A DNA stretch of 64,000 nucleotides from an uncultured Verrucomicrobiae bacterium (GTDB taxonomy: Bacteria; Verrucomicrobiota; Verrucomicrobiia; Chthoniobacterales; UBA10450). Position numbers and translations under genes: made by a program. Shown here piece after piece: positions 17,373 to 62,564 of this stretch. Under the pieces are notes generated by a model that saw only the letters and a list, made by a program, of their open reading frames with translations, did no database searches and had not been told where the DNA came from. The stretch spans positions 288,001 through 352,000 of the forward strand of contig CAVWPA010000001.1 of assembly GCA_963756875.1 (NCBI GenBank), in the 5' to 3' direction. The first letter of the stretch is position 1. Every line of letters begins with the position of its first letter.

Positions 17373-18703
17373 CTAACCTCCCAGCGTCTTTGGGTCGCTG
17401 ACATCACCTTTGTTGAAAGCCACATAGTCTTCGGTGAGATCGCTCGCGTACATCGTGAACCCGGCGCCGCCGAGATGAAGATCGACGTGAAGATCGAACT
17501 CCGGTGCCGATGTGATTTCGGCGAGTCTTTTCAAGGCGACATTTGTCGGACGTCCGCGGCGAAATGCAAAAATAATTTTACGGCTGGCAGGCCTGGCGTA
17601 ACCGACATCGACGACTGCCTCCCTGACGTGTGCTTTGGAATAGCCAAGCGCGCAAAGAATGCGACCCCAGTTTGGGTCTCCGCCACACCAACTTGTTCGC
17701 ACGAGAGAGCTGTTGGCGATTGCGCGCGCAGCCAATTCAGCATCCCGCGCATTTCGCGCGCCTCGCACGATCAATCTGACGAAGCGTGAGACGCCTTCGC
17801 CATCGCGCACAATCATTTTCGCCAACTCCAGGCAAACGTGATTAAGAGCCTGTCTGAAATTGCGGATTGCGGATCGCGGATTGCAGGATTGCCCGCCAGC
17901 CCGTTGGCGAGCATGATCACCGAATCGTTCGTGCTCATGTCGCCATCCACCGTGATCCGATTGAAGCTTTGCGCGACAGCGGTTTCGAGCGCGCGTTTCA
18001 AAACTCCGGGTTCGATCCCGACGTCGCTGGTGATGAATGCAAGCATGGTGGCATGTTTTGTAGCCGCGGCCATTCCCGGCTGGATCATTCCTGCTCCCTT
18101 GCAAATCCCGCCGATCCTCACCGTCGATCCTCCAATTTCGAATTCGACGGCAATTTCTTTGCGCCGCGTGTCCGTGGTCATGATCGCCTCGGCAACCTGA
18201 CGGGCGCTTCTGATCGAGCGCGCCAGCAACGGGGCGCACGTGCGAATCCCGCGCTCGACATTTCTCATCGGCATCGGCACGCCGATTCGGCCTGTGGAAC
18301 AGACAAGCACCTCCTGCGCGCTGATTCTTCTGTAGCGGCGGTCTATGACCGCCGCTACAGAGGCGGCGGCGATTTGCGTCATTTTTTCTGCGTCGTGTAA
18401 TCCCTGTTTCCCGGTGCAGGCATTGGCATTTCCCGAATTAACCACAATGGCTCGCGCGGATTTTTTTCCCGCGCGTTTGGCGCTGATCTTTACCGGAGCG
18501 GCGCATACCTGATTTGTTGTAAACATTCCCGCAACGGCTGCCGGAACCTCTGAAACGATCAACGCCAGATCATGCTTCTTGCCTTTCTCCGAACCTTTGC
18601 CCGTGCCGAGCTTTTTAATGTCGCAAAACACGGCAGCGGCGTTAAAGCCGCGTGGCGCGCAAATGGAGCCGGGGATTTGTTTGAAACGAGATTTGTTAGG
18701 CAT
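17373..18703 (-). CDS. argJ: Ornithine acetyltransferase, frameshift at ~17860
   Basis: VVNSGNANACTG, STGRIG, IMTTDT, KGAGMIQP, ATML, VDGDMSTND, then IVRDGEG and DPNWGRI in a second frame. Confidence 0.95.
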
Positions 18704-18715
18704 ACGATCTTATCC

Positions 18716-18866
18716 GGGTAGCGCACGCGTCTCGCGTGTTGGTTGCGGCGTCACGCCGCAACGCGCTTTTTTCGTCGACTTCCCTTTTGTCGAGGCTGCG
18801 CTTCCGTGATGGAAGTTCGCGACGGCGCGGACGCCGTCGCCAGCACGCGAGACGCGTGCGCCACCC
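18716..18866. repeat. REP-like composite palindrome (GCGCACGCGTCTCGCGTG family)
   Basis: GGGTAGCGCACGCGTCTCGCGTGTTGG ... CCAGCACGCGAGACGCGTGCGCCACCC; relatives at 22581-22731, 43536-43657 and a half copy at ~30938. Confidence 0.85.
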
Positions 18867-18882
18867 AAACCATCTGTTACGC

Positions 18883-19938
18883 TCACAGCAGTCCGATCGT
18901 TTCGGGGAACCCGCACATTAAATTGAAACATTGGACAGCCTGGCCGCTCGCCCCCTTGATCACGTTGTCGATCGCGCTCATTAGAATGAGGCGCCCGGTA
19001 CGCGGATCGGTCCGCCAGGCTATATCGATAAAATTGGTGCCGGCCACGTTCTTTGTGTCCGGCAACTGCTCGTTGCCCAGCAATCGCACAAAGGGCTCCT
19101 TGCCGTACGCGCTCTCGAACACGACCGCGGGATCCACCGCCACAACGTTGCCGCCGAACTCGGCATAAATGGTCGTAAGAATGCCGCGATTCACCGGCAC
19201 CAGGTGCGGTGTGAATTGGATCGTTACTTTCTCCTCGGCCAGAAGCGAGAGCTCCTGTTCGATCTCGGATAAATGCCGGTGCTTGGGCACGCCGTACGGG
19301 CGAACGCTTTCGTTGCATTCGGCGAACAGATAATCGGCTTCCACTTTCCGGCCGGCGCCGGTCACCCCGCTCAAACTTGTGACCAAAATTCTGCTGCGGT
19401 CGATGGCCTTCCTGCGAATTAACGGCCGAAGCGGAATCAGAATACTTGTCGGATAACAACCAGGGCAGGCGATCAGCTTCGCGCTCTGGATTTGGTCCCG
19501 ATAGATTTCCGGCAGTCCGTAAACGGCCTCGCCAAGCACGTCCGGCGCGGGATGATCGTGGCCGTAGAATTCCTTGTAAACCGCGGCATCGCGGAGTCGA
19601 AAATCGGCGCTCAGATCGATCACACGCGCGCCGAGTTGCAAGAGCGGCTTGGCAAACTCCGCCGCCAGTCCATGCGGCAAGGCGAGAAAAACGATCTCCG
19701 CGTCTTTCGCGAGCCGTTTTGGATCGGTGTCCGAAAAGCTGAGCGTTCTCGCTTTTTCAACGTGCGCGAAGCGTGGAAAAATTTGGGCGAGCGGTTTGCC
19801 GGCAAACTGCCGGGAAGTTGCGGCGACAAGATCGACCTGTGGGTGCGCCAAAAGCAGGCGCACCAGCTCTTCGCCGGCGTAACCGGACGCGCCGACGACT
19901 GCGACTCTGGTCAGCTGCTTCGTTGCCACAACGCGCAA
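18883..19938 (-). CDS. argC: N-acetyl-gamma-glutamyl-phosphate reductase
   Basis: VAVVGASGYAGEEL, FLALPHG, DLSADFRL, ACPGCYPT, SGVTGAGR, IDNVIKGASGQAVQ. Confidence 0.97.
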   Translation of the reverse strand: MRVVATKQLTRVAVVGASGYAGEELVRLLLAHPQVDLVAATSRQFAGKPLAQIFPRFAHVEKARTLSFSDTDPKRLAKDAEIVFLALPHGLAAEFAKPLLQLGARVIDLSADFRLRDAAVYKEFYGHDHPAPDVLGEAVYGLPEIYRDQIQSAKLIACPGCYPTSILIPLRPLIRRKAIDRSRILVTSLSGVTGAGRKVEADYLFAECNESVRPYGVPKHRHLSEIEQELSLLAEEKVTIQFTPHLVPVNRGILTTIYAEFGGNVVAVDPAVVFESAYGKEPFVRLLGNEQLPDTKNVAGTNFIDIAWRTDPRTGRLILMSAIDNVIKGASGQAVQCFNLMCGFPETIGLL

Positions 19939-19973
19939 TGCGTATTCCGTCTCCGGGCAATTGCAATTGGAAT

Positions 19974-20073
19974 TGTAGCCACGGCGCTCTGTCGCCGTGT
20001 TTTGCCAGAGAAGAGGAGCGCCTCGACAGAGCGAGGCGGCTATAGCTTCCGACGCTCATAGAGCGCCGCTACA
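19974..20073. repeat. GTAG-type REP cluster between argC and floA
   Basis: TGTAGCCACGGCGCTCTGTCGCCGT ... GCCTCGACAGAGCGAGGCGGCTATA ... CGCTCATAGAGCGCCGCTACA. Confidence 0.7.
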
Positions 20074-22081: not shown

Positions 22082-22143
22082 TTGTAGGGCAAGCGCTCCG
22101 CTTGCCAGTGTAATGGTCGGCAACCGATGCGCTTGCCCTACAA
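22082..22143. repeat. GTAGGGC-type REP pair
   Basis: TTGTAGGGCAAGCGCTCCGCTTGCC ... GGCAACCGATGCGCTTGCCCTACAA; same family at 29696-29757 and 57814-57877. Confidence 0.85.
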
Positions 22144-22151
22144 ACAAAAAT

Positions 22152-29695: not shown

Positions 29696-29757
29696 TTGTA
29701 GGGCGGGCGCTCCGCCTGCCGTCTGTTCTCCCGGCAAGCGACGCGCTTGCCCTACAA
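29696..29757. repeat. GTAGGGC-type REP pair
   Basis: TTGTAGGGCGGGCGCTCCGCCTGCC ... GGCAAGCGACGCGCTTGCCCTACAA. Confidence 0.85.
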
Positions 29758-29790
29758 TTGTTCCGTAGCTAACAAAATTCGTGTTGTTGT

Positions 29791-30327
29791 TCATTGGCCT
29801 GGGGCGCGGACGAGAGAGATTTCCTCGGCTGGATAAGAGACGCGAAGCGATGCGCCGGTTGCGGGATTGCGCCACTGCACGGTCTCCTGTTTTTGCGATC
29901 GGAACCGGCGCATCGGGCGATCCGAGCCCACTGGGAAACGCAGCCCTTCGTCGCGCGTATTATAAACAACTTCGGTAAGGGTGGTCGGAACAAACTCGCC
30001 GGAGGATGCGACCGGCAATCTGGTAGCGAGCGCTGGTGAAATCGTGGCGATGCTGGGAGCTTTTTTTGGAGAGCGATCGATATCGACACGCGCGTAGATC
30101 AGGAGAGCTGCAGCGGCCGCAGCGGCTGCGAGGCCGAGCGGTATTTTGTAGGGCGTTTCTGTGAAACGCCGCACCCACGCCCATCTGCGGCCGGCGTCCG
30201 CCGCGGCGGACGCCCTGCAATTTGCCAGCTCGGTGAGCGTGCGGTCGATTCTCGCCACCAAATCCTCAGACGGAGTGACGGGCCGCAGATTTCGCAACCG
30301 GTTTTCGAGGTCAGAAAAGTCGTTCAT
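29791..30327 (-). CDS. Putative anti-sigma factor
   Basis: Overlaps the sigma gene end; LENRLRNLRPVTPS N-terminus, single TM (LGLAAAAAAAALLI). Confidence 0.75.
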   Translation of the reverse strand: MNDFSDLENRLRNLRPVTPSEDLVARIDRTLTELANCRASAAADAGRRWAWVRRFTETPYKIPLGLAAAAAAAALLIYARVDIDRSPKKAPSIATISPALATRLPVASSGEFVPTTLTEVVYNTRDEGLRFPVGSDRPMRRFRSQKQETVQWRNPATGASLRVSYPAEEISLVRAPGQ

Positions 30328-30815
30328 TGTGGAGGGGGTCTCTTCTCAAGGCGGCAAGCGCATAGCGATAGCGCGACGCGGCGGTGTTTTGCGAAATGCC
30401 AAGCGCGCTTCCGATTTCGGCGAAAGTGAGATCGTTCCAAATTTTCATGACCAGCACTTCGCGTTGTTCGTGAGGCAGACCATCCACCGCCGCTGCCAAA
30501 GCTTGTTGCGATTCATCTTCGATTGCAAATTTCGGTTGGACCGACGATTCGGTTTCGGCAACGGCATTGGATTCGCGGCGCGCGCGGCGGCTTTCGCGAC
30601 GCAAAAAGTCGAGCGCGATGGAGCGAACGGCTGCGTAGAGGAGGCGCACGATTGTCCAGGTTGTGATTACGCTTCCAGAAGCGAACGAACGCTTCCTGGA
30701 CGACATCTTCCGCATCGGCCTTGGAAGGCATCCATTGGCGGGCAAAGAGGAGCAGACCAGGAGCGAGTTGGGAAAAACGGACCTTCCAATCTTCATCAAT
30801 GGCGACATTCTCCAT
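30311..30815 (-). CDS. ECF sigma-70 factor, frameshift near 30648
   Basis: DAEDVVQEAFVRFW (region 2), then in the other frame LPHEQREVLVMKIWNDLTFAEIGSALGISQNTAASRYRYA (region 4). Confidence 0.92.
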
Positions 30816-31080
30816 GACCTGTTCACGGTCTTTTATAATCAAGACGCCGCCAACTGATGATTTTGTCTAGAGAAGCCCGAAGTTTTTTGCGCGGGAACGT
30901 GGGTGTGGTTCGTGCCCGACGCTGGGATACGAAAGCTCCGGGGAGCGCACGCGCCCTCCCCGGATTTTGAGGAAGAGGTCGCGGGCTTTTAGCCTCCGAC
31001 TGCATCGCGCTGGCGCCTACTGCCCTTAAAACTTCGGATTTTTCTTGCCGCACGGGAGGTCGAGTGACAAAACGGCCTCT

Positions 31081-38382: not shown

Positions 38383-38584
38383 GGAAGCCGCCTACCATCG
38401 TTCAAGCGCGGCAAGAAGAAAATCCCATTCTTTCGGCCTTTGTTCTCCTCTTAATCCTGCTCGTGCTCATGATCTTGATCGTCGTTCCAGTACAATGTCC
38501 GAGCATTGGACGTGGAATGCTGGGACTTAATCAAATAGGACGAGATTTATCCGGATCGATGGATGCGACGGTCGTAGACCGCCG

Positions 38585-39865
38585 CTACAGAAGAGTACGC
38601 GCGAGGTCGCCCGCCTTCTTTCGCACCAATTCCGCTGCGTGCTTTATCTGCTCCTGCTTGCTCATTCCCGAATCTGAGAGCGCATACACGCCATCGAAAA
38701 GGCCGCGAACTTCCCGGTCCTCGGTGGCACGGCCCACGATTGCCATGACGCGCTTATCAAGTTTCCGAGCAAGCTGCGCCACGCCCGCCGGCGTTTTTCC
38801 CTCCAAAGTCTGTCGATCCAGGCTTCCTTCGCCCGTGATGACCACGTCGGCGCTTTTCACTTTCGATTCGAAGTCGATCGATTTAGCGATCACGTTAAAA
38901 CCGGGACGAATTTTGGCGCCGCAAAAACTCATCAGCCCGAATCCGAGCCCGCCGGCGGCTCCGGCGCCTGGCTCGTTGCGATAATCGATCCCAAATTCCT
39001 TTGTGACGACGTCCGCCAGTTTCGTGAGCGCGGCTTCCAATACATCGATCGTGGCATTCGTTACGCCTTTTTGCGGACCGTACACTCGCGTTGCGCCATT
39101 CTCTCCGAGCAACGGATTACGTACATCAACCGCGGCGACGATTTTCGGCAGTGATGGATGGATTACGCCTAACGGGTTGCCCTCACCTTCATCTTCTCCC
39201 GGGCCCACTCCTTTTGCCCTCACTGGTTCGGCGGTTGCCGAATCCGTCTCTCCCGTTGGGAGAGAGGGGAGAGGAGGGGCAGCCTTTCGTCCCGCAGACG
39301 TGGGACTACGGCCCGGCAAGCGCGAAGCGCCGGGTGAGGGTCTCACGATGTGGGTAAGCGTCTGCAATTCGCTTATTTCTCCGCTCAACTCGTTGTCTCC
39401 GGCGAAAAATTGAAAACCCAACGCACGCGCCATTCCAAATCCGCCATCATTTGTGGCGCTGCCGCCAAGGCCGATGATGATTTCGAGAGCGCCGCGATGA
39501 GCGGCTCCCAAAATCATTTCTCCCACCCCGAACGTGTTCGCGCGAATCGGATCGCGTTCGCTTTCAGTAAGCCTTCGCATACCGGCGGCCTCGCTCATCT
39601 CGATGATCGCCAGCTTTTTATTGTCGATGTACGCGTAGCGCGCTTCGATCTCGCGGCTGAGCGGATCGTGCGCTTTGCATTTCAACCAGGAGCCACCGAG
39701 CGCCTCACAAATCACTTCCGCTGTTCCTTCGCCGCCATCCGCCATCGGTGCCATGTCGATCCTTGCGTCCGGTAAAACTTCGCGCAGCCCGGCTGCAATA
39801 TTTTCCGCAACTTCACGCGCGCTGAGCGAGCCTTTGAATTTATCCGGGGCGATTAATATTTTCAT
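38585..39865 (-). CDS. glxK: Glycerate kinase with ~55-aa internal insertion
   Basis: MKILIAPDKFKGSL, ADGGEGT, GLGGSATNDGG, DVRNPLLG, GAGAAGGLG, ITGEGSLDRQTLEGK. Confidence 0.95.
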   Translation of the reverse strand: MKILIAPDKFKGSLSAREVAENIAAGLREVLPDARIDMAPMADGGEGTAEVICEALGGSWLKCKAHDPLSREIEARYAYIDNKKLAIIEMSEAAGMRRLTESERDPIRANTFGVGEMILGAAHRGALEIIIGLGGSATNDGGFGMARALGFQFFAGDNELSGEISELQTLTHIVRPSPGASRLPGRSPTSAGRKAAPPLPSLPTGETDSATAEPVRAKGVGPGEDEGEGNPLGVIHPSLPKIVAAVDVRNPLLGENGATRVYGPQKGVTNATIDVLEAALTKLADVVTKEFGIDYRNEPGAGAAGGLGFGLMSFCGAKIRPGFNVIAKSIDFESKVKSADVVITGEGSLDRQTLEGKTPAGVAQLARKLDKRVMAIVGRATEDREVRGLFDGVYALSDSGMSKQEQIKHAAELVRKKAGDLARTLL

Positions 39866-39963
39866 TAGGCAGGGACGCACCTCCGGGGCGTCCGTCGAAT
39901 TCTAGACGCAAATTAGTCTGACTTCGGCGTTGGGCGTTGGATGTTGAGCGTTCGGCGTTTTCT

Positions 39964-41418
39964 TCAGCCTTTCAACTTTCGCTCCAGAATCTCCCCCACC
40001 AACTGCGGATTGGCTTTGCCTTTCGACAGCTTCATCACCTGGCCCTTTAGAAAATTCAGCGAGGCCGCATTGCCCGCCTTGAAATCGGCCGCTGGTTTCG
40101 GGTTCGCTGCAATCACATCGTCACACAGTTTTTCAATCGCGCCCGTGTCGCTCAATTGCTCGATCCCTTTCTCCTTCACGATGGCGGCCGCGCGTTTGCC
40201 GCTGGCGAACATTTCGGCAAAAACGTCTTTTGCCTGTTTGCCGCTGATTTTTCCGCTCTCGATCAAGTTGACCAGCTCATCGAGCGCTTCCGGAGGGACC
40301 GGACAATCGTCGATTGTTTTGCCGGCCGTGCTGAGTGCGTTTTGCAAATCGTTCAGAATCCAGTTGGCGACATTTTTCGGTTTCCTTGCCTTTTTCGCGG
40401 CGGACTCAAAATAGCGCGCCAGATCGAGATCATCCGCCAGCACGCCGGCGTCGTAGGCGCTCACTTGATATTGCTCCACAAAACGAGCGCGCTTGGCTTT
40501 TGGCAATTCCGGGACGCGCGCCCGCGCATCCGCCAGCAGCACTTCGCTTTTCACCGGCACAAGATCCGGATCGGGAAAATAGCGATAATCGTGCGCGGAT
40601 TCTTTCGTGCGCATGAGAAACGTCTCGCCGGCAGCGTCGTCCCAGCCGCGCGTTTCCTGTTCGAGTTTCTCGCCGCGCTCAATCGCCGCTCCCTGCCGCT
40701 GGATCTCATAAGCGAGCGCGCGCCGCACGCCGCTGATCGAGTTCATGTTTTTGATCTCAATTTTCGCGCCAAGCTCCGCCTGCTTTTCCGGACGCACCGA
40801 TACATTGCAATCGCACCGGAGCTGGCCTTTCTCCATATCGGCGTCGCTCACTGCGCCGTAGATCAAAATCTGTTTTAGCGACGTGAGAAACGCGAACGCT
40901 TCTTCCGGTGAATTGATTTCCGGCTGTGTCACGATCTCCATCAACGGCGTGCCGGCCCGGTTAAAATCGATCCCCGTGCTCGATTCGAAGTGGAAACTTT
41001 TCGCCACGTCTTCCTCGAGATGGATGCGCACAAGCGGCACTTCCTTTCCCGGTGTGGCGATGTTTTTCTGCGCGTCCTTTGGATAAGCCAGATCATGCAA
41101 CGGGACAGTGCCATTGGTGCAAAACGGCATGTCGTACTGAGAAATCTGATAATTTTTCGGCATGTCCGGATAAAAATAATTCTTCCGATCGAACTTGCAG
41201 ATCGGCGCGATATCGCAACCGAGCATGAGCCCGGTTAGCACAGTCATGCGCAGGGCTTCATGATTCATGACCGGCAGCGCGCCCGGCAGGCCGAGACAGG
41301 TCGGACAAGTATGAGTGTTCGGGGCGGCTCCGAATTCCACCGGGCACATGCAGAACATCTTGGAGCGGGTCTTCAGTTGCACGTGCACTTCCAACCCGAT
41401 GGTCGCGATGTAATTCAT
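39964..41418 (-). CDS. gatB: Asp/Glu-tRNA amidotransferase subunit B
   Basis: IGLEVHVQL, FDRKNYFYPD, DFNRAGTPLMEIV, EIKNMNS, YRYFPDPDL, GKANP. Confidence 0.98.
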   Translation of the reverse strand: MNYIATIGLEVHVQLKTRSKMFCMCPVEFGAAPNTHTCPTCLGLPGALPVMNHEALRMTVLTGLMLGCDIAPICKFDRKNYFYPDMPKNYQISQYDMPFCTNGTVPLHDLAYPKDAQKNIATPGKEVPLVRIHLEEDVAKSFHFESSTGIDFNRAGTPLMEIVTQPEINSPEEAFAFLTSLKQILIYGAVSDADMEKGQLRCDCNVSVRPEKQAELGAKIEIKNMNSISGVRRALAYEIQRQGAAIERGEKLEQETRGWDDAAGETFLMRTKESAHDYRYFPDPDLVPVKSEVLLADARARVPELPKAKRARFVEQYQVSAYDAGVLADDLDLARYFESAAKKARKPKNVANWILNDLQNALSTAGKTIDDCPVPPEALDELVNLIESGKISGKQAKDVFAEMFASGKRAAAIVKEKGIEQLSDTGAIEKLCDDVIAANPKPAADFKAGNAASLNFLKGQVMKLSKGKANPQLVGEILERKLKG

Positions 41419-43485: not shown

Positions 43486-43535
43486 GGTGGCGCAAAGTTA
43501 AATCGCCGACGCGTATTCACAATGCCGGATTCCAA

Positions 43536-43657
43536 TCCGGGGAGCGCACGCGCCTCGCGTGCCGGTTTCGGCGCCTCGCCGAAACAATCTTCGACAAAGT
43601 TCGCAACCCCGAAAGCGTTCGGGGTCGCCAGCACGCGAGGCGCGTGCGCTCCCCGGA
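43536..43657. repeat. REP-like composite palindrome
   Basis: TCCGGGGAGCGCACGCGCCTCGCGTGC ... GCACGCGAGGCGCGTGCGCTCCCCGGA with two internal hairpins. Confidence 0.88.
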
Positions 43658-43661
43658 GAGA

Positions 43662-47009: not shown

Positions 47010-48467
47010 CTAAGCGTAGTACGGGACGTACTTTGCGAATTTTCTCGATTTGTTTGCCGGATCGACCTGCCTAATAAACTTATTATCCAGCGCCTCCTGT
47101 ATTAGCACAGAGACCATTGACCGCTGCCTTTCCGGCATTTTGAGCCGTTCCCGCAAGGATGTATTCGTCATCCAGCTATCGGACAGATATTTCAAAATCG
47201 TGTGTTGGCGACAAGCTTCCAGCCGTTCACGAGCCGACATTTGCGCGAAAGTGCGGGGCGAATAGAGCGTAACTTTGAAGTAATTGGAACCAGCAGAAAA
47301 TTCCATCGGCGGAAGCCCGTAAAGTTCCACTTCAATTCCCGCCTTGAACAATCCTGAGCCACGTTCTTCACAAATCTTATAGCGCCTAAATCCTTTCGCT
47401 AATTGTTCATTTCTCGATTCCGGCTGCGTTCCGATAAGACGATCTAATTGTTTGGATGGAAGCAACCCGCCGGGATTAGACATTTCTATGCGGTCATCAA
47501 AGATTTCAACCAAAGGCCCAGCTCCACTAATTGAGAAATCTTGGTGAATCAGTGCGTTGGCGAGAAGTTCTCGCAAGGCGATTTCGGGATAAACAGTTCG
47601 CTTTCTTCTTAGCGCGCTCTCGATGACTTCACTTTGTGGCAAAAGAGACATTATGTAGGCCAAAATGCCGGGAAATCCGACGGCGTATCCTATTTTCCCC
47701 TCTCGTTCATGTTTGGTCTTGGCTTTGTTTAAGCCGTCATAGACGACCACCCGAATCGCTTTTCGACTGAGGTCTTCAAAATCGGAAAACTTACGGGCAG
47801 CCGCTATTGCCCCAAGATTCGTGACGTATCCTCCCCCCGAAGGCTCCCTGACAATGAATTTTTCGCCCGCCAACCACTCAATCATTTGATCTTCCGTCGT
47901 GGGAATCGGTCTCTCGGAGATTTTTAGAATGGGCTCAGCATCCAAACGCGCAATCAGTTCGGCGTCTGTCAGTAATAGCGAAGCGCGCAATTCCTCCCAT
48001 CGTGGAGTTCGACTGTGCAGCATCAACGTCCCGATTTCTTGACGCGATGCCTTCCGCGTCGTTCCTCCAGAACGAATGAAGGCCTCGTCTAAACCCTTTC
48101 CTCGCAAGTGAACCGGTTTAACGGGCGATTCAGGTATGAAAATTACCAACAGGCGAACCGATTCGTACGCATCCACTCCATGATCGAGTGCAAGAGGCGG
48201 TTCCACGGCATTACGACCAAGATTAGTCAGTTGAGTGGTCGTTTTCTGAATGGCATCTTCGTCGATCCCTATCGGAGTACCGGAGGGATCAATTCCATAA
48301 ACCAAAAAACCACCGCCCGGATGATTGGAGAACGCTGACAGGTGTTCTGTAAGCCGCTTCTTGTCAGGAGATAGGGCGGCCTTCCAATCCAATTCGTTCA
48401 GCTCGTGTCTCGGAGTGTCTAGGCTGACGTACAGTAATTCTAAAGCCCTAGACATCCACGCTTTCAT
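47010..48467 (-). CDS. AlbA_2 (Schlafen-like) domain + HATPase_c_4-like domain protein
   Basis: ELNELDWK, LSAFSNHPGGGFLVYGID, FIRSGGTTRKAS; YPEIALRELLANALIHQDF, IFDDRIEMSNPGG, SRNEQLA, CEERGSG. Confidence 0.88.
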   Translation of the reverse strand: MKAWMSRALELLYVSLDTPRHELNELDWKAALSPDKKRLTEHLSAFSNHPGGGFLVYGIDPSGTPIGIDEDAIQKTTTQLTNLGRNAVEPPLALDHGVDAYESVRLLVIFIPESPVKPVHLRGKGLDEAFIRSGGTTRKASRQEIGTLMLHSRTPRWEELRASLLLTDAELIARLDAEPILKISERPIPTTEDQMIEWLAGEKFIVREPSGGGYVTNLGAIAAARKFSDFEDLSRKAIRVVVYDGLNKAKTKHEREGKIGYAVGFPGILAYIMSLLPQSEVIESALRRKRTVYPEIALRELLANALIHQDFSISGAGPLVEIFDDRIEMSNPGGLLPSKQLDRLIGTQPESRNEQLAKGFRRYKICEERGSGLFKAGIEVELYGLPPMEFSAGSNYFKVTLYSPRTFAQMSARERLEACRQHTILKYLSDSWMTNTSLRERLKMPERQRSMVSVLIQEALDNKFIRQVDPANKSRKFAKYVPYYA

Positions 48468-55135: not shown

Positions 55136-56461
55136 TTACCGATCAAGAAATGTGAACATTAATTCGCCTTCTGAAACGACGGCATCGTTGACGACGCAGT
55201 GACATTTTGCCTTCGCCAGGCGTTCGCCACGGTGCTTGGTCAGCTCGGCGTGGATAAAGATCGTGTCGCCGGGGAATACCGGTTTGCGAAATTTTACGTC
55301 GTCGGCGCTCATAAAGTAACCGATGCGGCTGGTCGTTTTCGCGAGCTTGAACAATAAGAGACTCGCGACCTGGGCCATCGCTTCCACCTGCATCACGCCA
55401 GGCATGACCGGATGCCCGGGGAAATGTCCCTGAAAAAATGGCTCGTTAATGGTTACTGATTTCACTCCGATGCATTTTGTTCCATCGTTCTCGAAGCTAA
55501 TGATTCTATCCACCATCAAGAACGGATAGCGATGCGGCAGAATTTGCAGGATTTCCTCGCTATCGAGGCCGCCATCGCCCTTCGGAACTACGCGCGGAAC
55601 GGCGAGGGCTGTTCTGCGTGCCTGCTCGCGTGCGAGGAGGCGGGCCAGCTCCGCGTTGACGGCGTGGCCCGGTTTTACGGCGATGACATGACCGCGAATA
55701 CGGCGGCCAACCAACGCCAGGTCACCGACGATATCGAGGATTTTATGCCTGACGAATTCGTCCGGGAAACGGAGCGGTTCCTTGCTCAGGACCGCGTCGC
55801 CTCGCAGCACCACCGCGTTTTCCAGGCTTCCCCCTTTGATCAAATTTTTTTCCATGAGCGGTTCGACGTCTTCGTAATAAACAAACGTCCGGGCGGCCGC
55901 GATCTCCCGCTCGAACAGAGCGGGCGTGATTTCCATCGACAAAAACTGGGTAAAACGGTTGTTCGGCCCCGCCTGCGTGCATGAGATGCGGAACTTATCG
56001 TCCGGCAACAAAACGAGGAGGCCGCCGCTCTTTGATTCGACATGCACCGGTTCGCGCGGCTCGAAAAACTTTCGCGGCGCTTCCTGCGCGGTCAATCCTG
56101 CTTTCTTAATGGCATCAACGTACGGCCGCGCGCTGCCGTCGCCGATTGGTGGCTCGTTTGCGTCCATTTCGACGATGGCGTTGTCCACGCCCATTGCGGA
56201 GAGAGCGGCCAAAACGTGCTCGACGGTGTGCACGCGCACTGAGCCTTCGCCGATCGTGGTGGCGCGCTCGACGGTTTTTAAATTGTCGATGCTGGCGTCG
56301 ATTGTCGGCTCATCCTGCAAATCCTTTCGCTTAAATTTAATTCCGTGATCGACCGGCGCAGCGTGCAACTTCAGCGAGACCTTTTCGCCTGTATGCAGTG
56401 ACGTGCCGCTGAATCCGGCGGTCTTGGCAAGGGTATGTTGAAACTCAACAGAGGCGGGCAT
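55136..56461 (-). CDS. lpxC-fabZ: Bifunctional LpxC-FabZ
   Basis: TVEHVLAAL, PIGDGS, ARTF, RHKILD; LPHRYPFLMVDR, FFQGHFPGHPVMPGV, FRKPVFPGD. Confidence 0.97.
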   Translation of the reverse strand: MPASVEFQHTLAKTAGFSGTSLHTGEKVSLKLHAAPVDHGIKFKRKDLQDEPTIDASIDNLKTVERATTIGEGSVRVHTVEHVLAALSAMGVDNAIVEMDANEPPIGDGSARPYVDAIKKAGLTAQEAPRKFFEPREPVHVESKSGGLLVLLPDDKFRISCTQAGPNNRFTQFLSMEITPALFEREIAAARTFVYYEDVEPLMEKNLIKGGSLENAVVLRGDAVLSKEPLRFPDEFVRHKILDIVGDLALVGRRIRGHVIAVKPGHAVNAELARLLAREQARRTALAVPRVVPKGDGGLDSEEILQILPHRYPFLMVDRIISFENDGTKCIGVKSVTINEPFFQGHFPGHPVMPGVMQVEAMAQVASLLLFKLAKTTSRIGYFMSADDVKFRKPVFPGDTIFIHAELTKHRGERLAKAKCHCVVNDAVVSEGELMFTFLDR

Positions 56462-57576: not shown

Positions 57577-59188
57577 AGTAGCGCCAGTTCACGTTCGGGA
57601 AAAGGTTGTCTCGCGATTCACAATCGGCCAGGAATTTTTCATCGACATGGTTTGCGATCAACTCATCGTGCAATCGATTGAAACGGACAAGGTGATCCTT
57701 GGTCCGTTTTGTCGCATATTCCCTGGCGGTATTTGTTTTCATTAAGAATGCCCAATCGCTCGCCTGCGCGAGCAACAGTTCGCGCGCCAGTTGCTTCAGC
57801 GCACGCTCGGTAAATTGTAGGGCAGGCGCTCCGCCTGCCGACTCTTCGGCCGGCAACCGGAGCGGTTGCCCTACAATCGCTGAATATTTTTTCGCAATTT
57901 CCTCCATTTGTCGCGCGGCTGTCTGCAGGTGCGGATAAATCCAGACGTTGCTCGGATCGAGCCAGACACCCAGGTGTCCTTTTTCGCCCCACGTCGATGG
58001 CGCCGCCTCGATCGTCTGTTGCGTTGGATGTGCGGCCAGATATTCGCTTGGAGTCGTCAGGTTGAAGTCTTGCTGATCGAAAGCCGCTTTGCGAATGAAA
58101 AGCTCGAGAAAGCGCGGTCCTTCAAACCACCAATGACCGAATAATTCCGCATCGAATGGCACCACGACGATTGGATCGCCCGGTAGCGCCGCCGCTTGCC
58201 GCAGTTGCGAACGCCGGTCCTGAAGAAAATGGGCTGCGTGCTTTTCAGCGGCTTCGTCTGCTGCCGCCCGATCGTAAAGTTCCTTCTCAACCCCGGCGCC
58301 GGTGATCCGGTGATATTTGACGCCGGAGAATTTGCGCATGCCGCGCGCGACCGGTCCCAGGTGCTCGAGAGGAAGGTCGAACCCGATGTCCCGATAGAAT
58401 TCGCGATAAGCCGGATCCCCCGGATAGCCTTCTTTTGCGCTCCAAACCTGCCGGCTCGAGTCGCGGTCCCGTGCAAAAGCCGCAGGGCCCGCGGCCGTGT
58501 AGCACGGCGCGTAGATTGCGCGACGCGGCCGCGGATGTCCAAAGAGGAGACCATGGGCGTCGAGAACGAACCAGCGGATGTTCGCTTCCTGAAAAATCGA
58601 TTCCAGCCAGGGCGCGTAAGCGCACTCAGGCAACCAGAAGCCGGCCGGATCGGCATGGAAAAATTCGGTGTACACATCGCGACCGATCAGAATCTGCGCT
58701 CGTGCCGCTGTGCGCGAATGCAGGGGTAACGCGGCATGTGTCGCGGCTGAGGCGATGATTTCAAGCGCGCCGCTGTCTCGAATTTGCCGAAAGGCTTCGA
58801 GCAAATCGCACTTCCATTCGTCGACAAAGAACCGGCGGGTTTCGGAAAACATGTTGAAATAGAAATCGGACAGCTCCCGCAGCTGTGGGTCGTGGCGGTT
58901 GCGTTTTCGCTCGCGCGCGGCCAAGTCGATCAGAAGATCGATATGTTGAATGTAGCGTTCGCGCAGAAGCTCGTCCTGCAACATTGCGCACAGGGTCGGT
59001 GTAATCGACATCGTGAGTTTGAATGGAACGTTGTCGTGAACGAGCCGCTGCATCATGCGCAGCAACGGGACATATGTCTCGGTGATCGCTTCGAAGAGCC
59101 ACGTTTCCTCGAGAAAATGTTCCTGCTCCGGGTGCCTGACGAATGGCAAATGCGCGTGAAGAATGAGCGCGAGAGAACCGGAAGGCAT
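57569..59188 (-). CDS. GH57 1,4-alpha-glucan branching enzyme (DUF1957 type)
   Basis: LHAHLPFVRHP, WLFEAITETY, GFWLPECAY, PFDAELFGHWWFEG, ELLLAQASDWAF. Confidence 0.95.
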   Translation of the reverse strand: MPSGSLALILHAHLPFVRHPEQEHFLEETWLFEAITETYVPLLRMMQRLVHDNVPFKLTMSITPTLCAMLQDELLRERYIQHIDLLIDLAARERKRNRHDPQLRELSDFYFNMFSETRRFFVDEWKCDLLEAFRQIRDSGALEIIASAATHAALPLHSRTAARAQILIGRDVYTEFFHADPAGFWLPECAYAPWLESIFQEANIRWFVLDAHGLLFGHPRPRRAIYAPCYTAAGPAAFARDRDSSRQVWSAKEGYPGDPAYREFYRDIGFDLPLEHLGPVARGMRKFSGVKYHRITGAGVEKELYDRAAADEAAEKHAAHFLQDRRSQLRQAAALPGDPIVVVPFDAELFGHWWFEGPRFLELFIRKAAFDQQDFNLTTPSEYLAAHPTQQTIEAAPSTWGEKGHLGVWLDPSNVWIYPHLQTAARQMEEIAKKYSAIVGQPLRLPAEESAGGAPALQFTERALKQLARELLLAQASDWAFLMKTNTAREYATKRTKDHLVRFNRLHDELIANHVDEKFLADCESRDNLFPNVNWRYYV

Positions 59189-59194
59189 TTAGAT

Positions 59195-59305
59195 GTTGCG
59201 GAATGCGGATTGCGGAATGCGGATTAGATCCGCGTGCCCGGCAAATCCAGGGTCGAATTGCTCCTGCTCCCGCAATTTGCAATCCGCAGTCCGAACTCCG
59301 CAATT
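59195..59305. repeat. TTGCGGA heptamer inverted array
   Basis: TTGCGGAATGCGGATTGCGGAATGCGGATT ... CCGCAATTTGCAATCCGCAGTCCGAACTCCGCAA; same unit as inside argJ. Confidence 0.75.
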
Positions 59306-59306
59306 G

Positions 59307-60470
59307 TTAGAGCGTCCGGCAAAAGTCCTGGAACCGGTCGAGGCCTTTTTTAATGACGTCGATACTCGTGGCGTAACTCAAACGAACGGTCCGATCGTCG
59401 CCGAAGGCTACTCCGGGGACGACGGCGACATTGGCCTTGCTGAGCAAGCGATCGGCAAAGTTTTGCGAGGTGAGTCCGAGCTGGCTGATGTTGACCAGAA
59501 CATAAAATGCGCCTTCCGGTTTGACCGCGGTCACATTCGGGATTTTCGACACGCGATCGAACATGTAGTTGCGGCGCATATCGAATTCCTCACGCATATC
59601 GGCCACCGGCTGCTGGTCGCCTTTCAACGCGGCCAGCCCAGCCCGTTGCACGAAAGAAGCCGGATGCGAGGTGCTGTGGCTCTGGATTGATTCCACCGCC
59701 TTGGCCACTGCTTCGGGCGCGGCCAGATAACCCAGGCGCCACCCGGTCATCGCGTACGATTTGCTGAAACCGTTGACGGTAAGGGTCAGATCGTAAGCCT
59801 CTTTTGAGAGCGAGGCGATGCTCACGTGTTTGGTATCGTCGTAAATGAGCTTTTCGTAAATCTCGTCGGACAGGATGTAGATGTCCTCCTCGGCCGCCAC
59901 CTCGACAATCGCCTGCAATTCTTCCCGGGTGTAAACCGACCCAGTCGGATTGCAGGGGCTGTTCAGGATCAACATCTTGGTCCGTGGGGTCATCGCGTTC
60001 TCGAAATCTTCGGCCCGCATCTTCCACGAATTGCGTTCCATCGTGGGTATAATCACCGGCTCCGCGCCGGCGAGCTTGACCATTTCCGGATAGCTCACCC
60101 AATAGGGCGCTGGAATGACGACTTCGTCATCGGGCTGGCAGGTCGCCAGAATGGCGTTGTAGCAAGCCTGCTTTGCGCCGCTGCTTACCACGATCTGGCT
60201 CGCCCGATAACTCAATTCGTTGTCGGCCGCCAGTTTCTCCGAGATGGCCTGACGCAATTCCGGAATCCCCGAGCTTGGCGTGTATTTGGTGAATCCGGCC
60301 TGCAGCGCTTCAATCGCCGCGGCCTTGATATGTTCCGGTGTATCGAAATCCGGTTCGCCCGCGCCGAATCCGCATACGTCCAGCCCTTCGGCTTTCATTG
60401 CTTTCGCCTTGCTGTCGATCGAAAGCGTAATTGAAGGGGTGAGTCGGGCGGCGCGGTTGGAAATTTCCAT
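59307..60470 (-). CDS. Class I PLP aminotransferase (aspartate aminotransferase-like)
   Basis: GAGEPDF, KYTPSSG, PYWVSY, NSPCNPTG, SDEIY, NGFSKSYAMTGWRLG. Confidence 0.95.
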   Translation of the reverse strand: MEISNRAARLTPSITLSIDSKAKAMKAEGLDVCGFGAGEPDFDTPEHIKAAAIEALQAGFTKYTPSSGIPELRQAISEKLAADNELSYRASQIVVSSGAKQACYNAILATCQPDDEVVIPAPYWVSYPEMVKLAGAEPVIIPTMERNSWKMRAEDFENAMTPRTKMLILNSPCNPTGSVYTREELQAIVEVAAEEDIYILSDEIYEKLIYDDTKHVSIASLSKEAYDLTLTVNGFSKSYAMTGWRLGYLAAPEAVAKAVESIQSHSTSHPASFVQRAGLAALKGDQQPVADMREEFDMRRNYMFDRVSKIPNVTAVKPEGAFYVLVNISQLGLTSQNFADRLLSKANVAVVPGVAFGDDRTVRLSYATSIDVIKKGLDRFQDFCRTL

Positions 60471-60508
60471 GTCTTTGTTAGGCGATTGCAGCATTCAGGG
60501 AGCGCACA

Positions 60509-61585
60509 CTATTGGCTGCGGTAGAAATTTTCAATCAAAGGTTTAAAATTGTTTTCCTCCACTTGGACAATCGCCATTTCGCGCTTCGCATTCTCGGCAG
60601 AGTCGGACGCATGCGCGGCATTGACCATGATGGTCTGGCCGAATTCTTTTCGGATTGAGCCCGGCGGCGCCTTGGCGGGATCGGTCGGACCGAGCACGTC
60701 CCGGATTTTGCGCACCGCATCTTCGCCCTGATAAACAATGGCGATGCATTTTTCCGTACCCGGCGCGTCGCGCTTTTCGGGCGGGCATTCACCGGGCGAC
60801 ATGCCCGACATGAACGCCACGATGCTCTCCCAATTTTCGCGTCCGCTTTTTTCTCCCAGTTTCTCTTTCAGAACGGGCAACACGGGGCCGTAGAATTCCT
60901 CCGCTTGCGCGACGCTCATGCGATGGACCTTGAACCCGATCATGGAAAGGCCGGTACGCGAAAACACTTCAATCACACTGCCCGGCCGCAGATTCGGAAA
61001 TTTGAAATTGTCCGGCTTAATCAACACCAGCGTCTTCTCGACTTTTGCGCCTTTCGGAAAATGGACCGCGTCGTCGAGGATGCCGCCGTCGGAATCGGAA
61101 AATTCAGCCCAGAGTTTCAGGTCGCGCTGAACGGCCTTCGGATCGAACGCAGCCAATACTCCTGGTTCGAAGTAAGTCACTTTGCCCGACTCGTCCGTGA
61201 CGTAGTCACCGAATGTATCACGGATTGTCTCGCCGCTGGTGCGCTCGTGCACGATGTGTCCGACCGAGCGATGGATTTTATCGATCGCGTGCGGACCTCG
61301 AAAGATTAGAAAAAGCGCGCGCGGACGTTCTCCCTTGATCTCGCCTGTAAAATTTTTCAGCACATAATCGCGAATGAGTTCCTGCGTTGCGCGATGACCG
61401 GCTTCCGCTTCGGTCACGATTGTCTGCGCGTATCGCTTTACGAGTCCCGCGCTCGGCGCAAACATCCGCGCGGCGACGAGATCGAGTCCGGTGCGCGAAA
61501 TGAGCCGCGCGATGATCCATCCGGTGCGCGATTTGCGCATCGAGTATGGCGTGACGATGGCGTAGGCTAGTTCTTCGGTCTGCAT
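60509..61585 (-). CDS. ndk: Tandem two-domain nucleoside diphosphate kinase
   Basis: C-domain EKTLVLIKPD, GPTDPAKAPPGSIR, NAAHASDS; divergent N-domain ETIRDTFG, FEPGV. Confidence 0.9.
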   Translation of the reverse strand: MQTEELAYAIVTPYSMRKSRTGWIIARLISRTGLDLVAARMFAPSAGLVKRYAQTIVTEAEAGHRATQELIRDYVLKNFTGEIKGERPRALFLIFRGPHAIDKIHRSVGHIVHERTSGETIRDTFGDYVTDESGKVTYFEPGVLAAFDPKAVQRDLKLWAEFSDSDGGILDDAVHFPKGAKVEKTLVLIKPDNFKFPNLRPGSVIEVFSRTGLSMIGFKVHRMSVAQAEEFYGPVLPVLKEKLGEKSGRENWESIVAFMSGMSPGECPPEKRDAPGTEKCIAIVYQGEDAVRKIRDVLGPTDPAKAPPGSIRKEFGQTIMVNAAHASDSAENAKREMAIVQVEENNFKPLIENFYRSQ

Positions 61586-61695
61586 GATTGCTCCAGCGGC
61601 TTATGATTTAAACCGCGGGGTGCAGAAAACCGTAGCCGCCAAAGGCAAATTGAATCTAGCTGGCGGCTTCTCTCGCGCAAATCTGTTTTGCTTTA

Positions 61696-61757
61696 CTGTA
61701 GCGGCGGTCTGCGACCGTCGCATCGATTCTGGTCGGCGGTCATAGACCGCCGCTACA
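61696..61757. repeat. GTAGCGGCGGTC-type REP pair overlapping the prmA 3' end
   Basis: CTGTAGCGGCGGTCTGCGACCGTCGC ... CGGCGGTCATAGACCGCCGCTACA; same family at 18329-18361 and 38562-38590. Confidence 0.85.
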
Positions 61758-62564
61758 ACGCGCTAGAATCGCCAGCCATTTTCCGCGTCGCCTGACCGCT
61801 ACAGTATTGATTCTGTTGCGCTTCAAGGCCCGAACAAATTCTCTTTCCTGCTCACGTAAAACGCCCGATAAAATCAACCAGCGACCTTTTGTTAGTGCCG
61901 GCAGAATTTCCATTAGCAATTCGCTGAACAAGTTCGCGGTGACCATGTCGGTGCGGGGCGGCAATTTCCACGCCCGCACATCGGCAACCCGAAATTGCAC
62001 GTTGTCGATCCGGTTTGAGCGCGCGTTTTTTTTGGCCGTGGAAATGGCGATTGGATCGTCATCGATCGCAATGATCCGCCCCGCGCCGAGCCGTTTCCCC
62101 GCAAGCGCGAGAATTCCCGTGCCGGTGCCGAGATCGGCCATCGACCAACCGGCTTTCCAGGCGCGGGTGGTTTGTTCGAGCAATCGCAACGACATGGCCG
62201 TCGTTGCGTGTTCGCCTGTGCCGAATGCTCCCCCGGCCGGAATAAGGAGACTGTAGGGGAAGCTGCCAGCTTCTCGTTTTCCAGGGGAACGAACGATGAT
62301 CAGCCGCTTTCCAATCTTCAGCCTTCTGGCTGTCTGTTTGCGTGCGAACCGCTCCAGCCAATTCGTTGGCAATCTGTCAATGCGGCCGCCAAATTCCTTC
62401 GTGAGCGCTCGCAAATCCTTCGACGACTGGCACGCCGCCTCAACCTGCAATCGTTTCCTGATCGGTCGCTCGATGATGGCCAGCCGATCGCCCAGCCGCG
62501 ATTGCAACCTCTCCTCGTTCTCCGCCAACCACTGCGGAGTAGCTAGCCTTTGCCACAAATACAT
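61740..62564 (-). CDS. prmA: Ribosomal protein L11 methyltransferase
   Basis: AFGTGEHATT, DLGTGTGILA, IDDDP, VTANL, LILSGVL. Confidence 0.9.
   Translation of the reverse strand: MYLWQRLATPQWLAENEERLQSRLGDRLAIIERPIRKRLQVEAACQSSKDLRALTKEFGGRIDRLPTNWLERFARKQTARRLKIGKRLIIVRSPGKREAGSFPYSLLIPAGGAFGTGEHATTAMSLRLLEQTTRAWKAGWSMADLGTGTGILALAGKRLGAGRIIAIDDDPIAISTAKKNARSNRIDNVQFRVADVRAWKLPPRTDMVTANLFSELLMEILPALTKGRWLILSGVLREQEREFVRALKRNRINTVAVRRRGKWLAILARCSGGL

What the first reader, a model, noticed from the sequence alone, without database searches (positions are those of the whole stretch)
17859..62290. Several palindromic repeat families are translated in frame inside conserved proteins
Seen: REP-like units lie inside open CDSs in ArgJ (twice), the anti-sigma factor, glycerate kinase, the GH57 branching enzyme, PrmA and the ArgD N-terminus; for the ArgJ, GH57 and ArgD cases the same family also occurs between genes in this window. 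Known: GTAG-type REPs are spread by RAYT/TnpA-REP and are typically extragenic; coding insertions are best known for Rickettsia palindromic elements. Inference: a multi-family system that adds new peptide loops to enzymes in this lineage. No RAYT gene is present in this window.
Basis: partly seen in the sequence, partly recalled or inferred. Interest (0 to 1): 0.82.

Follow-up and report, generated by a model that had tools for sequence, protein, structure and literature searches.

The report
Mobile palindromes translated inside conserved proteins
Small hairpin-forming mobile DNA repeats have landed inside working genes of this soil bacterium without breaking the reading frame, so they are read as extra protein loops; the habit is real and widespread here, but it is already on record for related bacteria.

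Summary
The second ArgJ site (17859-17893) breaks the frame. The ArgD copy probably lies upstream of the true start. Orthologues without the inserts exist for every case tested.

Genome-wide, 38 more copies are bracketed by Pfam-matched parts of 29 ORFs, including MutS, MutL, UvrA (six copies), UvrB, DnaE, FtsK, SMC, LeuRS and AlaRS. The genome has six Y1 (RAYT/TIRYT) transposase genes, five of them flanked by inverted copies of a repeat. The multi-family mobile-element reading is therefore supported.

It is not new in kind. Di Nocera et al. 2013 (PMC3733652) reported intragenic GTAG REPs, most numerous in the verrucomicrobium Opitutus terrae.

More unusual is something outside the window. The hairpin-flanked Y1 transposase itself sits in frame, without stop codons (13 of 20 copies also lack a start codon), inside MetH here and inside AlaRS, ThrRS, RecG and CarB in relatives. 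This scan had already noted that arrangement on other DNA, and I found no paper describing it.

The parts
18329..18361 (-). Family-B GTAG REP, a perfect palindrome, in frame in ArgJ (aa 115-125, SVAAVIDRRYR)
   Evidence: (I11). It adds 27 nt compared with 5 of 8 relatives. G008 has a full REPIN (+60 nt) at the same site and in the same frame.
17859..17893 (-). 7-nt tandem array (GCAATCC units) in ArgJ, at the point where the gene changes frame
   Evidence: One soil contig lacks 1 nt at 17885.
17373..18703 (-). argJ, in two frames in this assembly (17813..18703 and 17373..about 17881)
   Evidence: (Pfam ArgJ 10-222 and 222-372)
30146..30220 (-). 75-nt REPIN (GCAGGGCGT../..ACGCCCTACAA) in frame in ORF 29791..30327, a putative anti-sigma factor, just before its hydrophobic segment
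   Evidence: An X2 contig is identical over 29943-30269.
39155..39337 (-). 61-codon insert in glycerate kinase (aa 182-242), from a ~150-165-nt nested-palindrome repeat family
38563..38594 (-). Family-B REP abutting the 3' end of glycerate kinase; its GTAG supplies the TAG stop
57815..57877 (-). Family-A REPIN in frame in the GH57 enzyme (aa 438-458, IVGQPLRLPAEESAGGAPALQ), in a loop between two helices
62250..62273 (-). Single REP unit (CTGTAGGGGAAGCTGCCAGCTTC) in frame in PrmA (EAGSFPYS)
61696..61759 (-). Family-B REPIN overlapping the last 6 codons and the stop of PrmA
16302..16347 (-). 7-nt tandem array (family D) between the ArgB stop and the conserved start region of ArgD; probably not translated
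22082..22144 (.). Intergenic family-A REPIN
29696..29758 (.). Intergenic family-A REPIN
39917..39964 (.). Intergenic family-D array between GatB and glycerate kinase
59199..59293 (.). Intergenic inverted pair of the 7-nt family seen in ArgJ site 2
   Evidence: D20; I6
43534..43661 (.). Intergenic family-C MITE (30-nt TIRs), a non-autonomous form of the TIR-flanked Y1 transposase element
   Evidence: (I1)

Best explanation
The window comes from a Candidatus Udaeobacter-like member of the Chthoniobacterales (Verrucomicrobiota). Its genome is colonised by several families of small hairpin-forming mobile repeats. These are GTAG-headed REPs and their inverted doublets (REPINs), a TIR-type MITE family, a ~165-nt element and 7-nt tandem arrays. 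They are most likely mobilised by the genome's six Y1 (HUH) RAYT/TIRYT transposases acting on single-stranded hairpins.

Most copies are intergenic, often abutting a stop codon. Copies that landed in coding DNA survive only where three conditions hold: the added length is a multiple of three, the reading phase has no stop, and the site is a tolerant loop, linker or terminus. Those copies are read through by the ribosome and become extra, mostly disordered peptide loops. Some are old and have been inherited and kept in frame while the palindrome decays.

Shown here: the repeat-family membership, the in-frame position, the lineage-specific presence, and the RAYT-repeat associations. Inferred: the mobilisation mechanism, translation of the inserts, and their neutrality.
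For: Family membership and non-chance occurrence.

In-frame position in recognised proteins.

Genome-wide survey:
- 541 short-repeat loci were found.
- 59 candidate in-frame copies lie in 49 ORFs.
- Of the 56 copies in the 46 ORFs outside the window, 38 are bracketed by Pfam-matched parts of the same ORF. 17 are inside a domain and 21 between domains, in 29 ORFs.

Frame preservation: 31 loci have coding-like flanks in the same open frame, against 9 on the same strand in different frames. In 5 of those 9 the upstream gene simply ends at the repeat.

Orthologues lacking the inserts.

Different repeat families sit in the same two ArgJ loops in different genera.

The GH57 REPIN has the same site and length in 5 of 53 sequences, all within one 17-member clade. 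Its state ranges from near-perfect to decayed.

In the AlphaFold2 model of GH57 (mean pLDDT 85.7) the insert is a loop with pLDDT below 50 at residues 441-453, between helices 417-436 and 455-474. The closest solved GH57 chain, 2b5d, has a gap there.

There are six Y1_Tnp genes, five flanked by inverted copies of a repeat.

Same phenomenon in print: PMC3733652.
Against: - No direct evidence of translation. No RNA holder was listed and no proteomics exists.
- No RAYT was found directly flanked by families A or B, which are the ones in GH57 and ArgJ.
A second gene in the window, the ECF sigma factor, has a 1-nt frame break. The assembly may therefore carry indel errors, or these genes are decaying.
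- The patchy distribution of the GH57 insert needs at least 3 gains or losses. The data do not say whether these are repeated site-specific insertions or precise excisions.
- The net gain in the anti-sigma ORF is only a few residues, so part of a native segment may have been replaced.
Confidence: 0.85

Rival explanations
1. Assembly or annotation artefact. The repeats were placed in genes by mis-assembly at repeats, or the 'CDS' is only a longest-ORF extension.
For: - The assembly is a 3-contig, 87.6%-complete MAG.
- There are two frame breaks in 64 kb, in ArgJ and the ECF sigma factor.
- The ArgD case does look like an ORF extension.
- The REPs at the 3' ends of glycerate kinase and PrmA touch only the stop region.
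Against: - Internal inserts keep the frame, with Pfam-matched sequence on both sides.
- Independent assemblies carry inserts at the same sites: G008 in ArgJ, and G012, L110, L111 and L112 in GH57.
- A contig assembled separately from run X2 is identical over 327 nt across the anti-sigma REPIN. That run may, however, be the source sample.
Confidence: 0.03
2. The inserts are in the DNA but are not part of the mature protein. They would be removed at the RNA level using the hairpin, skipped by the ribosome, or spliced out of the protein. Alternatively the host genes are pseudogenes.
For: - All elements form strong hairpins.
- There are no expression data.
- ArgJ is in fact frame-broken at one repeat.
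Against: - Removal before translation would put no selection on length or stop codons. Yet intragenic copies are almost all frame-preserving and stop-free.
- Decayed orthologous copies still keep frame and length.
- No intein or Hint family appears in the Pfam scans of 46 + 18 host ORFs.
- The hosts include single-copy essential genes. AlaRS is the only copy in 5 of 5 genomes examined. MetH is the only methionine synthase found in G000.
Confidence: 0.07
3. The inserts are adaptive. Under this reading the lineage recruits repeat-encoded peptides, or their mRNA hairpins, for a function such as regulation, localisation or interaction. That would explain why the same loops are hit repeatedly.
For: - The same loops of ArgJ, AlaRS and GH57 carry inserts in several genera.
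- The G000 copy in GH57 is still a near-perfect REPIN although the insertion looks old.
Against: - The hosts are functionally unrelated.
- The insert peptides differ by family and are predicted to be disordered.
- Close relatives do without them.
- Repeated hits on one loop are what a tolerance filter predicts.
Confidence: 0.05

Closest known systems
Intragenic GTAG/CGTC REPs (Di Nocera, De Gregorio and Rocco 2013, BMC Genomics 14:522, PMC3733652; passages and Additional file 3 seen)
   Same: - GTAG-headed palindromes, single or as dimers, lie inside ORFs of known proteins and encode about 7-30 residues.
- Many hosts are replication and repair genes, uvrA among them.
- GTAG often supplies the TAG stop.
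- N-terminal cases are often mis-annotation.
- The highest GTAG count was in the verrucomicrobium Opitutus terrae ('terrae' occurs 70 times in Additional file 3).
- TIR-flanked Y1 genes (TIRYTs) with TIR repeat families are also described there.
   Different: - A different verrucomicrobial order, Udaeobacter-like Chthoniobacterales.
- Here there is orthologue-by-orthologue evidence of gain and decay.
- Different families hit the same loop.
- A 61-codon element and 7-nt arrays are also involved.
- UvrA carries six copies.
Rickettsia palindromic elements (RPEs). Recalled: Ogata et al. 2000. Cited as refs 13 and 14 in PMC3733652; passage seen.
   Same: Palindromic repeats inserted in frame in ORFs that probably encode functional proteins.
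   Different: RPEs are CGTC-type or longer elements in an obligate intracellular alphaproteobacterium, with no dedicated transposase known. Here the elements are GTAG-type, with RAYTs present, in a free-living soil lineage.
REPIN-RAYT systems (Bertels and Rainey 2011, PMC3116915; search listing and abstract only)
   Same: Inverted REP doublets, many copies per genome, and Y1 transposase genes flanked by their own REPs.
   Different: The classical systems are described as extragenic. Here about 8% of the surveyed loci are candidates for being read as protein.
Inteins and homing elements in essential genes. This is a comparison of how the thing works, and applies only to the nested transposase.
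   Same: A selfish element lodged in frame in conserved loops of essential genes, where imprecise loss would be lethal.
   Different: There is no Hint or intein family match and no conserved splice-junction residues. The guest is a Y1 HUH transposase with hairpin ends.

Membership tests
REP/REPIN-RAYT system | Short palindromic unit with a conserved 5' GTAG-type head | tested here: met
   Families A (TTGTAGGGC..), B (CTGTAGCGGCG..), F (GTAGCCAC..), G (GTAGAGGCAGGC..) and the PrmA unit (GTAGGGGAAGC..):
REP/REPIN-RAYT system | Many copies per genome, mostly extragenic | tested here: met
   Seed counts are 143 and 93. There are 541 short-repeat loci, of which 59 are candidates for an in-frame position.
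REP/REPIN-RAYT system | Units arranged as inverted doublets able to form a long hairpin | tested here: met
   DNA folds give -28.5 kcal/mol for the GH57 copy and -19.1 for the ArgJ copy.
REP/REPIN-RAYT system | A Y1 (HUH) transposase gene flanked by copies of the same repeat | tested here: inconclusive
   Met for families G, F and C and for two GGAGGG-type families. No RAYT directly flanked by family A or B was found in this 87.6%-complete assembly.
REP/REPIN-RAYT system | RAYT binds and cleaves its REP hairpin | not testable with these tools
   Needs biochemistry.
Rickettsia palindromic elements (RPE) | Membership of the RPE sequence families (CGTC-type or RPE-1, in Rickettsia) | tested here: not met
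   The heads here are GTAG or GCAG, not CGTC. The organism is a verrucomicrobium. It works like RPEs but is not a member.
TIRYT / TIRtron with TIR-MITEs (family C) | Y1 gene bounded by terminal inverted repeats that also form a gene-less repeat family | tested here: met
   (two copies with intact TIRs of about 26 nt). Gene-less TIR-TIR copies include window 43534-43661.
Y1 HUH transposase fold (nested domain) | HUH motif, catalytic Tyr and the TnpA-REP fold | tested here: met
   H104, H106 and Y174 are invariant in 25 sequences. pLDDT is above 90 for about residues 52-200. The best PDB match is 4er8_A, TnpA-REP with a REP hairpin, TM 0.66 normalised by target.
Intein | Hint domain and conserved splice-junction residues | tested here: not met
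   No Hint or intein family appears in the Pfam scans. The junctions are TIR-encoded peptides.

The most novel reading that the evidence does not exclude
The short translated repeats may be the non-autonomous fringe of an element family adapted to living inside reading frames. The autonomous member is a Y1 (RAYT/TIRYT-type) transposase with its two hairpin ends. It has no stop codon, and in 13 of 20 copies no start codon of its own. It would be expressed only as an internal domain of essential host proteins. Those hosts are MetH here, and AlaRS, ThrRS, RecG and CarB in relatives; HrpB-type helicase domain sets also appear among the database proteins. The hairpin-encoded segments would serve as disordered linkers.

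Essential genes would then act as refuges, because only a precise in-frame loss is survivable, much as for inteins. The REP/MITE loops in ArgJ, GH57, AlaRS and UvrA would be relatives or footprints of such residents.

I found no paper describing this. This scan's earlier notes on other genomes describe the same arrangement.
Probability: 0.5. Interest if true: 0.8.

Novelty: new member of a known kind. Interest (0 to 1): 0.45.

Why it matters
The window gives a clean natural experiment on how much insertion conserved enzymes tolerate. Dozens of housekeeping proteins in one small soil genome carry repeat-encoded loops, with orthologues showing the before, after and decayed states.

For annotation it explains over-long housekeeping proteins and some apparent frameshifts in Udaeobacter-like MAGs, which are among the most abundant soil bacteria (recalled).

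For mobile-element biology, the genome also links short translated repeats to a transposase that is itself read as part of essential proteins. If that is confirmed by proteomics, it would be a new persistence strategy for a DNA transposon.

Tried and rejected
- A 12-mer over-representation map was too noisy in this 57% GC genome. I replaced it with a blastn-short depth map.
- The look-up of sequencing runs listed no RNA holder and only two DNA runs, with small word shares of 0.09 and 0.06.
- Laying those runs gave patchy contig cover. It did not cover GH57, glycerate kinase or PrmA, which were outside the stretch laid. It could not settle the ArgJ frame: one low-depth contig lacks 1 nt at 17885, which would give 133 nt and is still out of frame. 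The 'joints' between 18355 and 20050 are contigs from other REP loci, not deletions.
- The search of earlier findings by place found nothing for this genome, and one word search found nothing.
- I considered protein splicing for the nested transposase and rejected it, because no Hint or intein match was found.
- I considered a split ArgJ (alpha and beta subunits encoded separately) and rejected it. The break lies about 60 residues after the ATML autocleavage motif, not at it.
- Two of the 20 loci fetched for the nested transposase (L190, L206) gave no ORF with my MPDH[VI]H motif filter and were not examined further.
- Literature searches for an in-frame nested Y1 transposase found none. Quentin et al. 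[quoted passage not shown]
Full report
WHAT THE WINDOW IS

The window is G000:C1:288001-352000 of a 2.69-Mb, 3-contig, 57% GC genome scored 87.6% complete. The closest public GH57 genes come from MAGs labelled Candidatus Udaeobacter, Chthoniobacterales or Verrucomicrobia.

Pfam scans of 36 ORFs give an ordinary housekeeping stretch. It includes:
- argB, argJ and argC
- floA, amt and a PEGA Ser/Thr kinase
- an ECF sigma factor with a downstream small membrane ORF
- glycerate kinase, gatB, aroC and rpsA
- lpxA and lpxC-fabZ
- a GH57 branching-type enzyme, an aminotransferase and prmA

THE REPEATS ARE REAL

The repeat finder and a blastn-short depth map show at least six short-repeat families in the window.
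- A: TTGTAGGGC[hairpin]..[hairpin]GCCCTACAA doublets.
- B: CTGTAGCGGCGGTCTATGACCGCCG units and doublets.
- C: 30-nt TIRs, TCCGGGGAGCGCACGCGCCTCGCGTGC.
- D and E: 7-nt tandem arrays.
- A ~150-165-nt nested palindrome.
- A GTAGGGGAAGC unit.

Two pattern controls gave 6 window hits each, against 0.23 and 0.06 expected. No shuffle out of 100 reached 6. Genome-wide seed counts are 143, 93, 72, 33 and 19.

SITE BY SITE

1. ArgJ site 1 (18329-18361). This is a perfect 15+3+15 palindrome of family B, read as SVAAVIDRRYR inside the ArgJ N-part. Between the conserved anchors NSGNANA and (C/G)STGRIG, 5 of 8 relatives have 111 nt and G000 has 138. G008 has 171, with a complete family-B REPIN at the same place and in the same frame. 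G012 has 159, with a different palindrome family that also occurs in G000's TrpA. G011 has 168.

2. ArgJ site 2 (17859-17893). This is a 7-nt array. ArgJ changes frame here. The anchor distance is 134 nt, against 126-204 nt in 8 of 8 relatives, all multiples of three. In the same loop G012 and G011 carry other 7-nt arrays, G016 a GGTAGGGCGAGACTC-type REPIN and G017 another insert. This site is therefore not in an open CDS in this assembly.

3. ORF 29791..30327. It has no Pfam match, follows the ECF sigma gene, and has orthologues in 18 of 30 relatives. It holds a 75-nt REPIN at 30146-30220, read as NCRASAAADAGRRWAWVRRFTETPYK, just before a hydrophobic stretch. The net gain over orthologues is only a few residues. 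G012 and G009 carry other inserts at this spot. A contig of run X2 is identical over 29943-30269.

4. Glycerate kinase. Residues 182-242 (39155-39337, 61 codons) match repeats at C3:1052410 (76%), C3:1037268 (73%) and C3:1273415 (83%). All 23 relatives with a match align as two abutting pieces, 1-182 and 243-430. 13 of 13 aligned relatives lack the insert. The REP at the 3' end only provides the TAG stop.

5. GH57. The REPIN at 57815-57877 encodes IVGQPLRLPAEESAGGAPALQ.
- 18 of 19 relatives in the first set lack it.
- In the wider set 5 of 53 rows have it: G000, G012, L110, L111 and L112. All fall in one 17-member clade with SH-aLRT support of 99. They are not monophyletic, and well-supported branches force at least 3 changes.
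- The five copies share site, length and frame. They range from a near-perfect hairpin (-28.9 kcal/mol) to decayed (-14.8).
- The solved GH57 chain 2b5d has a gap there.
- In the AlphaFold2 model (mean pLDDT 85.7) residues 441-453 have pLDDT below 50, in a loop between helices 417-436 and 455-474.

6. PrmA. An internal REP unit at 62250-62273 is read as EAGSFPYS, in a loop of variable length among orthologues. G010 shares SFPY. The 3' REPIN covers only the last 6 codons and the stop.

7. ArgD. The array at 16302-16347 lies between the ArgB stop and the part of ArgD that aligns with orthologues' N-termini. The only in-frame starts are the TTG at 16375, which overlaps argB, and the TTG at 16277-16279. 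It is probably untranslated, but I cannot tell for certain.

UNPUBLISHED GENOMES IN THE COUNTS

The counts of relatives without inserts include rows from the unpublished genomes G002, G007 and G014.
- GH57: G002 and G014.
- ArgJ: G002.
- Glycerate kinase: G007 and G014.
- Anti-sigma ORF: G002 and G014.
The conclusions hold without those rows.

GENOME-WIDE SURVEY

A self-comparison gave 709 regions of depth 5 or more. After merging and a 20-250-nt length filter, 541 short-repeat loci remained. I scored the flanks with a codon-usage model.
- 31 loci have coding-like flanks in one open frame.
- 9 have flanks on one strand in different frames.
- 24 have coding flanks of other kinds.
- 218 have a coding flank on one side only.
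- 259 have none.

In 5 of the 9 different-frame loci the upstream gene simply stops at the repeat.

A relaxed screen gave 59 copies in 49 ORFs. Pfam matched 38 of the 46 ORFs outside the window. Of their 56 repeat copies:
- 17 lie inside a domain envelope
- 21 lie between domains of the same ORF
- 10 have a domain on one side only
- 8 have no Pfam match

The hosts include MutS, RsmE-type methyltransferase, MiaB-like enzymes, FtsK, TrpA, RmlD, TilS, SMC (2 copies), MetH (3), ThiC, GGT, LeuRS, Dxr, RNase R, an E2 acyltransferase, PolB, DnaE (2), MeaB, AlaRS, TsaD, UvrB, MutL and a 1488-residue UvrA with six copies.

TRANSPOSASES

The genome has six Y1_Tnp matches.
- C3:11963-12448 is flanked on both sides by tandem family-G REPINs.
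- C2:136825-137304 is flanked by family-F REPINs.
- C3:1385540-1386076 and C1:672209-672703 are flanked by two GGAGGG-type palindromes.
- C3:1631542-1632216 is flanked by family-C TIRs.
No RAYT was found directly beside family A or B.

WHAT IS ALREADY KNOWN

Di Nocera et al. 2013 (PMC3733652; passages and Additional file 3 seen) report the following:
- GTAG and CGTC REPs lie inside ORFs of known proteins.
- Many of those ORFs are replication and repair genes, including uvrA.
- The highest GTAG number is in Opitutus terrae.
- GTAG ends often supply TAG stops.
- Many N-terminal cases are mis-annotations.
- TIR-flanked Y1 genes (TIRYTs) have their own TIR repeat families.
The same paper cites RPEs in Rickettsia as the first in-frame case.

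The finding is therefore a new member of a known kind. What this window adds:
- Orthologue-resolved gain, persistence and decay of the inserts.
- Repeated colonisation of the same loops by different families.
- The sheer density of inserts in a 2.7-Mb genome.

OUTSIDE THE WINDOW: A TRANSPOSASE READ AS PART OF ITS HOST

The sixth Y1 match (C2:26168-26647) lies inside a 1542-residue stop-free MetH ORF, between the homocysteine and pterin domains. It is bounded by intact family-C TIRs. It has no ATG, GTG or TTG between the left TIR and the conserved YSKRRLPHFERPW, and no stop before MetH resumes. MetH is the only methionine synthase found in G000, and no MetE was found in this incomplete genome.

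Across 61 genomes of the family, 35 have homologues. 48 of the 57 listed matches lie in stop-free frames of 698-1663 residues. All 18 ORFs examined are host proteins with Pfam domains on both sides: MetH 5 (two sites, both occupied in G044), AlaRS 7, RecG 3, CarB 2 and ThrRS 1. In 5 of 5 genomes checked, the interrupted AlaRS is the only AlaRS.

The protein database holds 1166 clusters of 281-2000 residues with E at most 1e-20. Among the 120 listed, most combine PF01797 with AlaRS, MetH, ThrRS or HrpB-type domain sets. JGI's automatic names read 'alanyl-tRNA synthetase/REP element-mobilizing transposase RayT'.

The nested domain looks intact:
- The HUH histidines and the catalytic tyrosine are invariant in 25 sequences.
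- 13 of 20 nested copies have no start codon inside the element.
- The hairpin in the left end is kept, with a different stem sequence in the RecG-borne copies.
- The domain is predicted with pLDDT above 90, while the TIR-encoded flanks score below 55.
- The best structural match is TnpA-REP bound to a REP hairpin, 4er8_A.

On a tree of the domain, the RecG and CarB copies are each monophyletic. The AlaRS copies fall in at least two clades, with the ThrRS copy inside one of them. That suggests movement between hosts.

G000's own AlaRS carries only a gene-less family-C remnant, at a second hot spot shared with G058, G004 and G033.

Five literature searches found no description of this arrangement. 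Quentin et al. 2018 discarded over-long Y1 proteins as fusions or errors.

This scan had already noted the same arrangement in other genomes, in alaS, thrS, priA and valS. I reached it independently before reading those notes.

VERDICT

The novelty is modest for the translated repeats themselves and higher for the nested transposase to which they lead.

Noticed in passing
G000:C2:23186-27811 (outside the window; locus L076): MetH is a 1542-residue stop-free ORF. It contains a complete TIR-flanked Y1 transposase with no start or stop of its own, plus a further family-C copy. A tandem array of family-A REPINs lies just upstream at C2:27909-28518.
   Followed up: yes
G000:C3:700928-705391 (locus L083): UvrA-like ORF of 1488 residues carrying six in-frame repeat copies: four of family C, one of family G and one of family B.
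   Followed up: partly
window 30311-30842 (-): The ECF sigma factor gene is split over two frames by one extra C near 30643 (GCGCCTCC where orthologues imply GCGCTCC). This is either an assembly indel or a decaying gene.
   Followed up: partly
L031 (G017 argJ): G017's ArgJ is also in two frames. It carries a GTAGCCACGGCG-type REPIN immediately before the ATML autocleavage motif. G000 has a 6-residue extra segment (AAATKH) at that spot.
   Followed up: no
window 17859-17893, 16302-16347, 39917-39964, 59199-59293: 7-nt tandem arrays (GCAATCC and CCAACGC types) behave as dispersed repeat families. They recur in coding loops such as ArgJ, MiaB, ThiC, Dxr, UvrB and MeaB. Unit-number changes in them would shift the frame.
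   Followed up: partly
relatives G006-G016: 25-30-nt family-B REP sequences are 100% identical across several genera of the family, although flanking coding DNA is only about 70-74% identical.
   Followed up: no
window 47010-48467 (-): A Schlafen/AlbA_2 plus HATPase_c_4 protein lies in a stretch whose repeats look AT-rich compared with the rest of the window. It may be an acquired gene.
   Followed up: no
window 55136-56461 (-): LpxC and FabZ(FabA-like) domains are fused in one 441-residue ORF.
   Followed up: no
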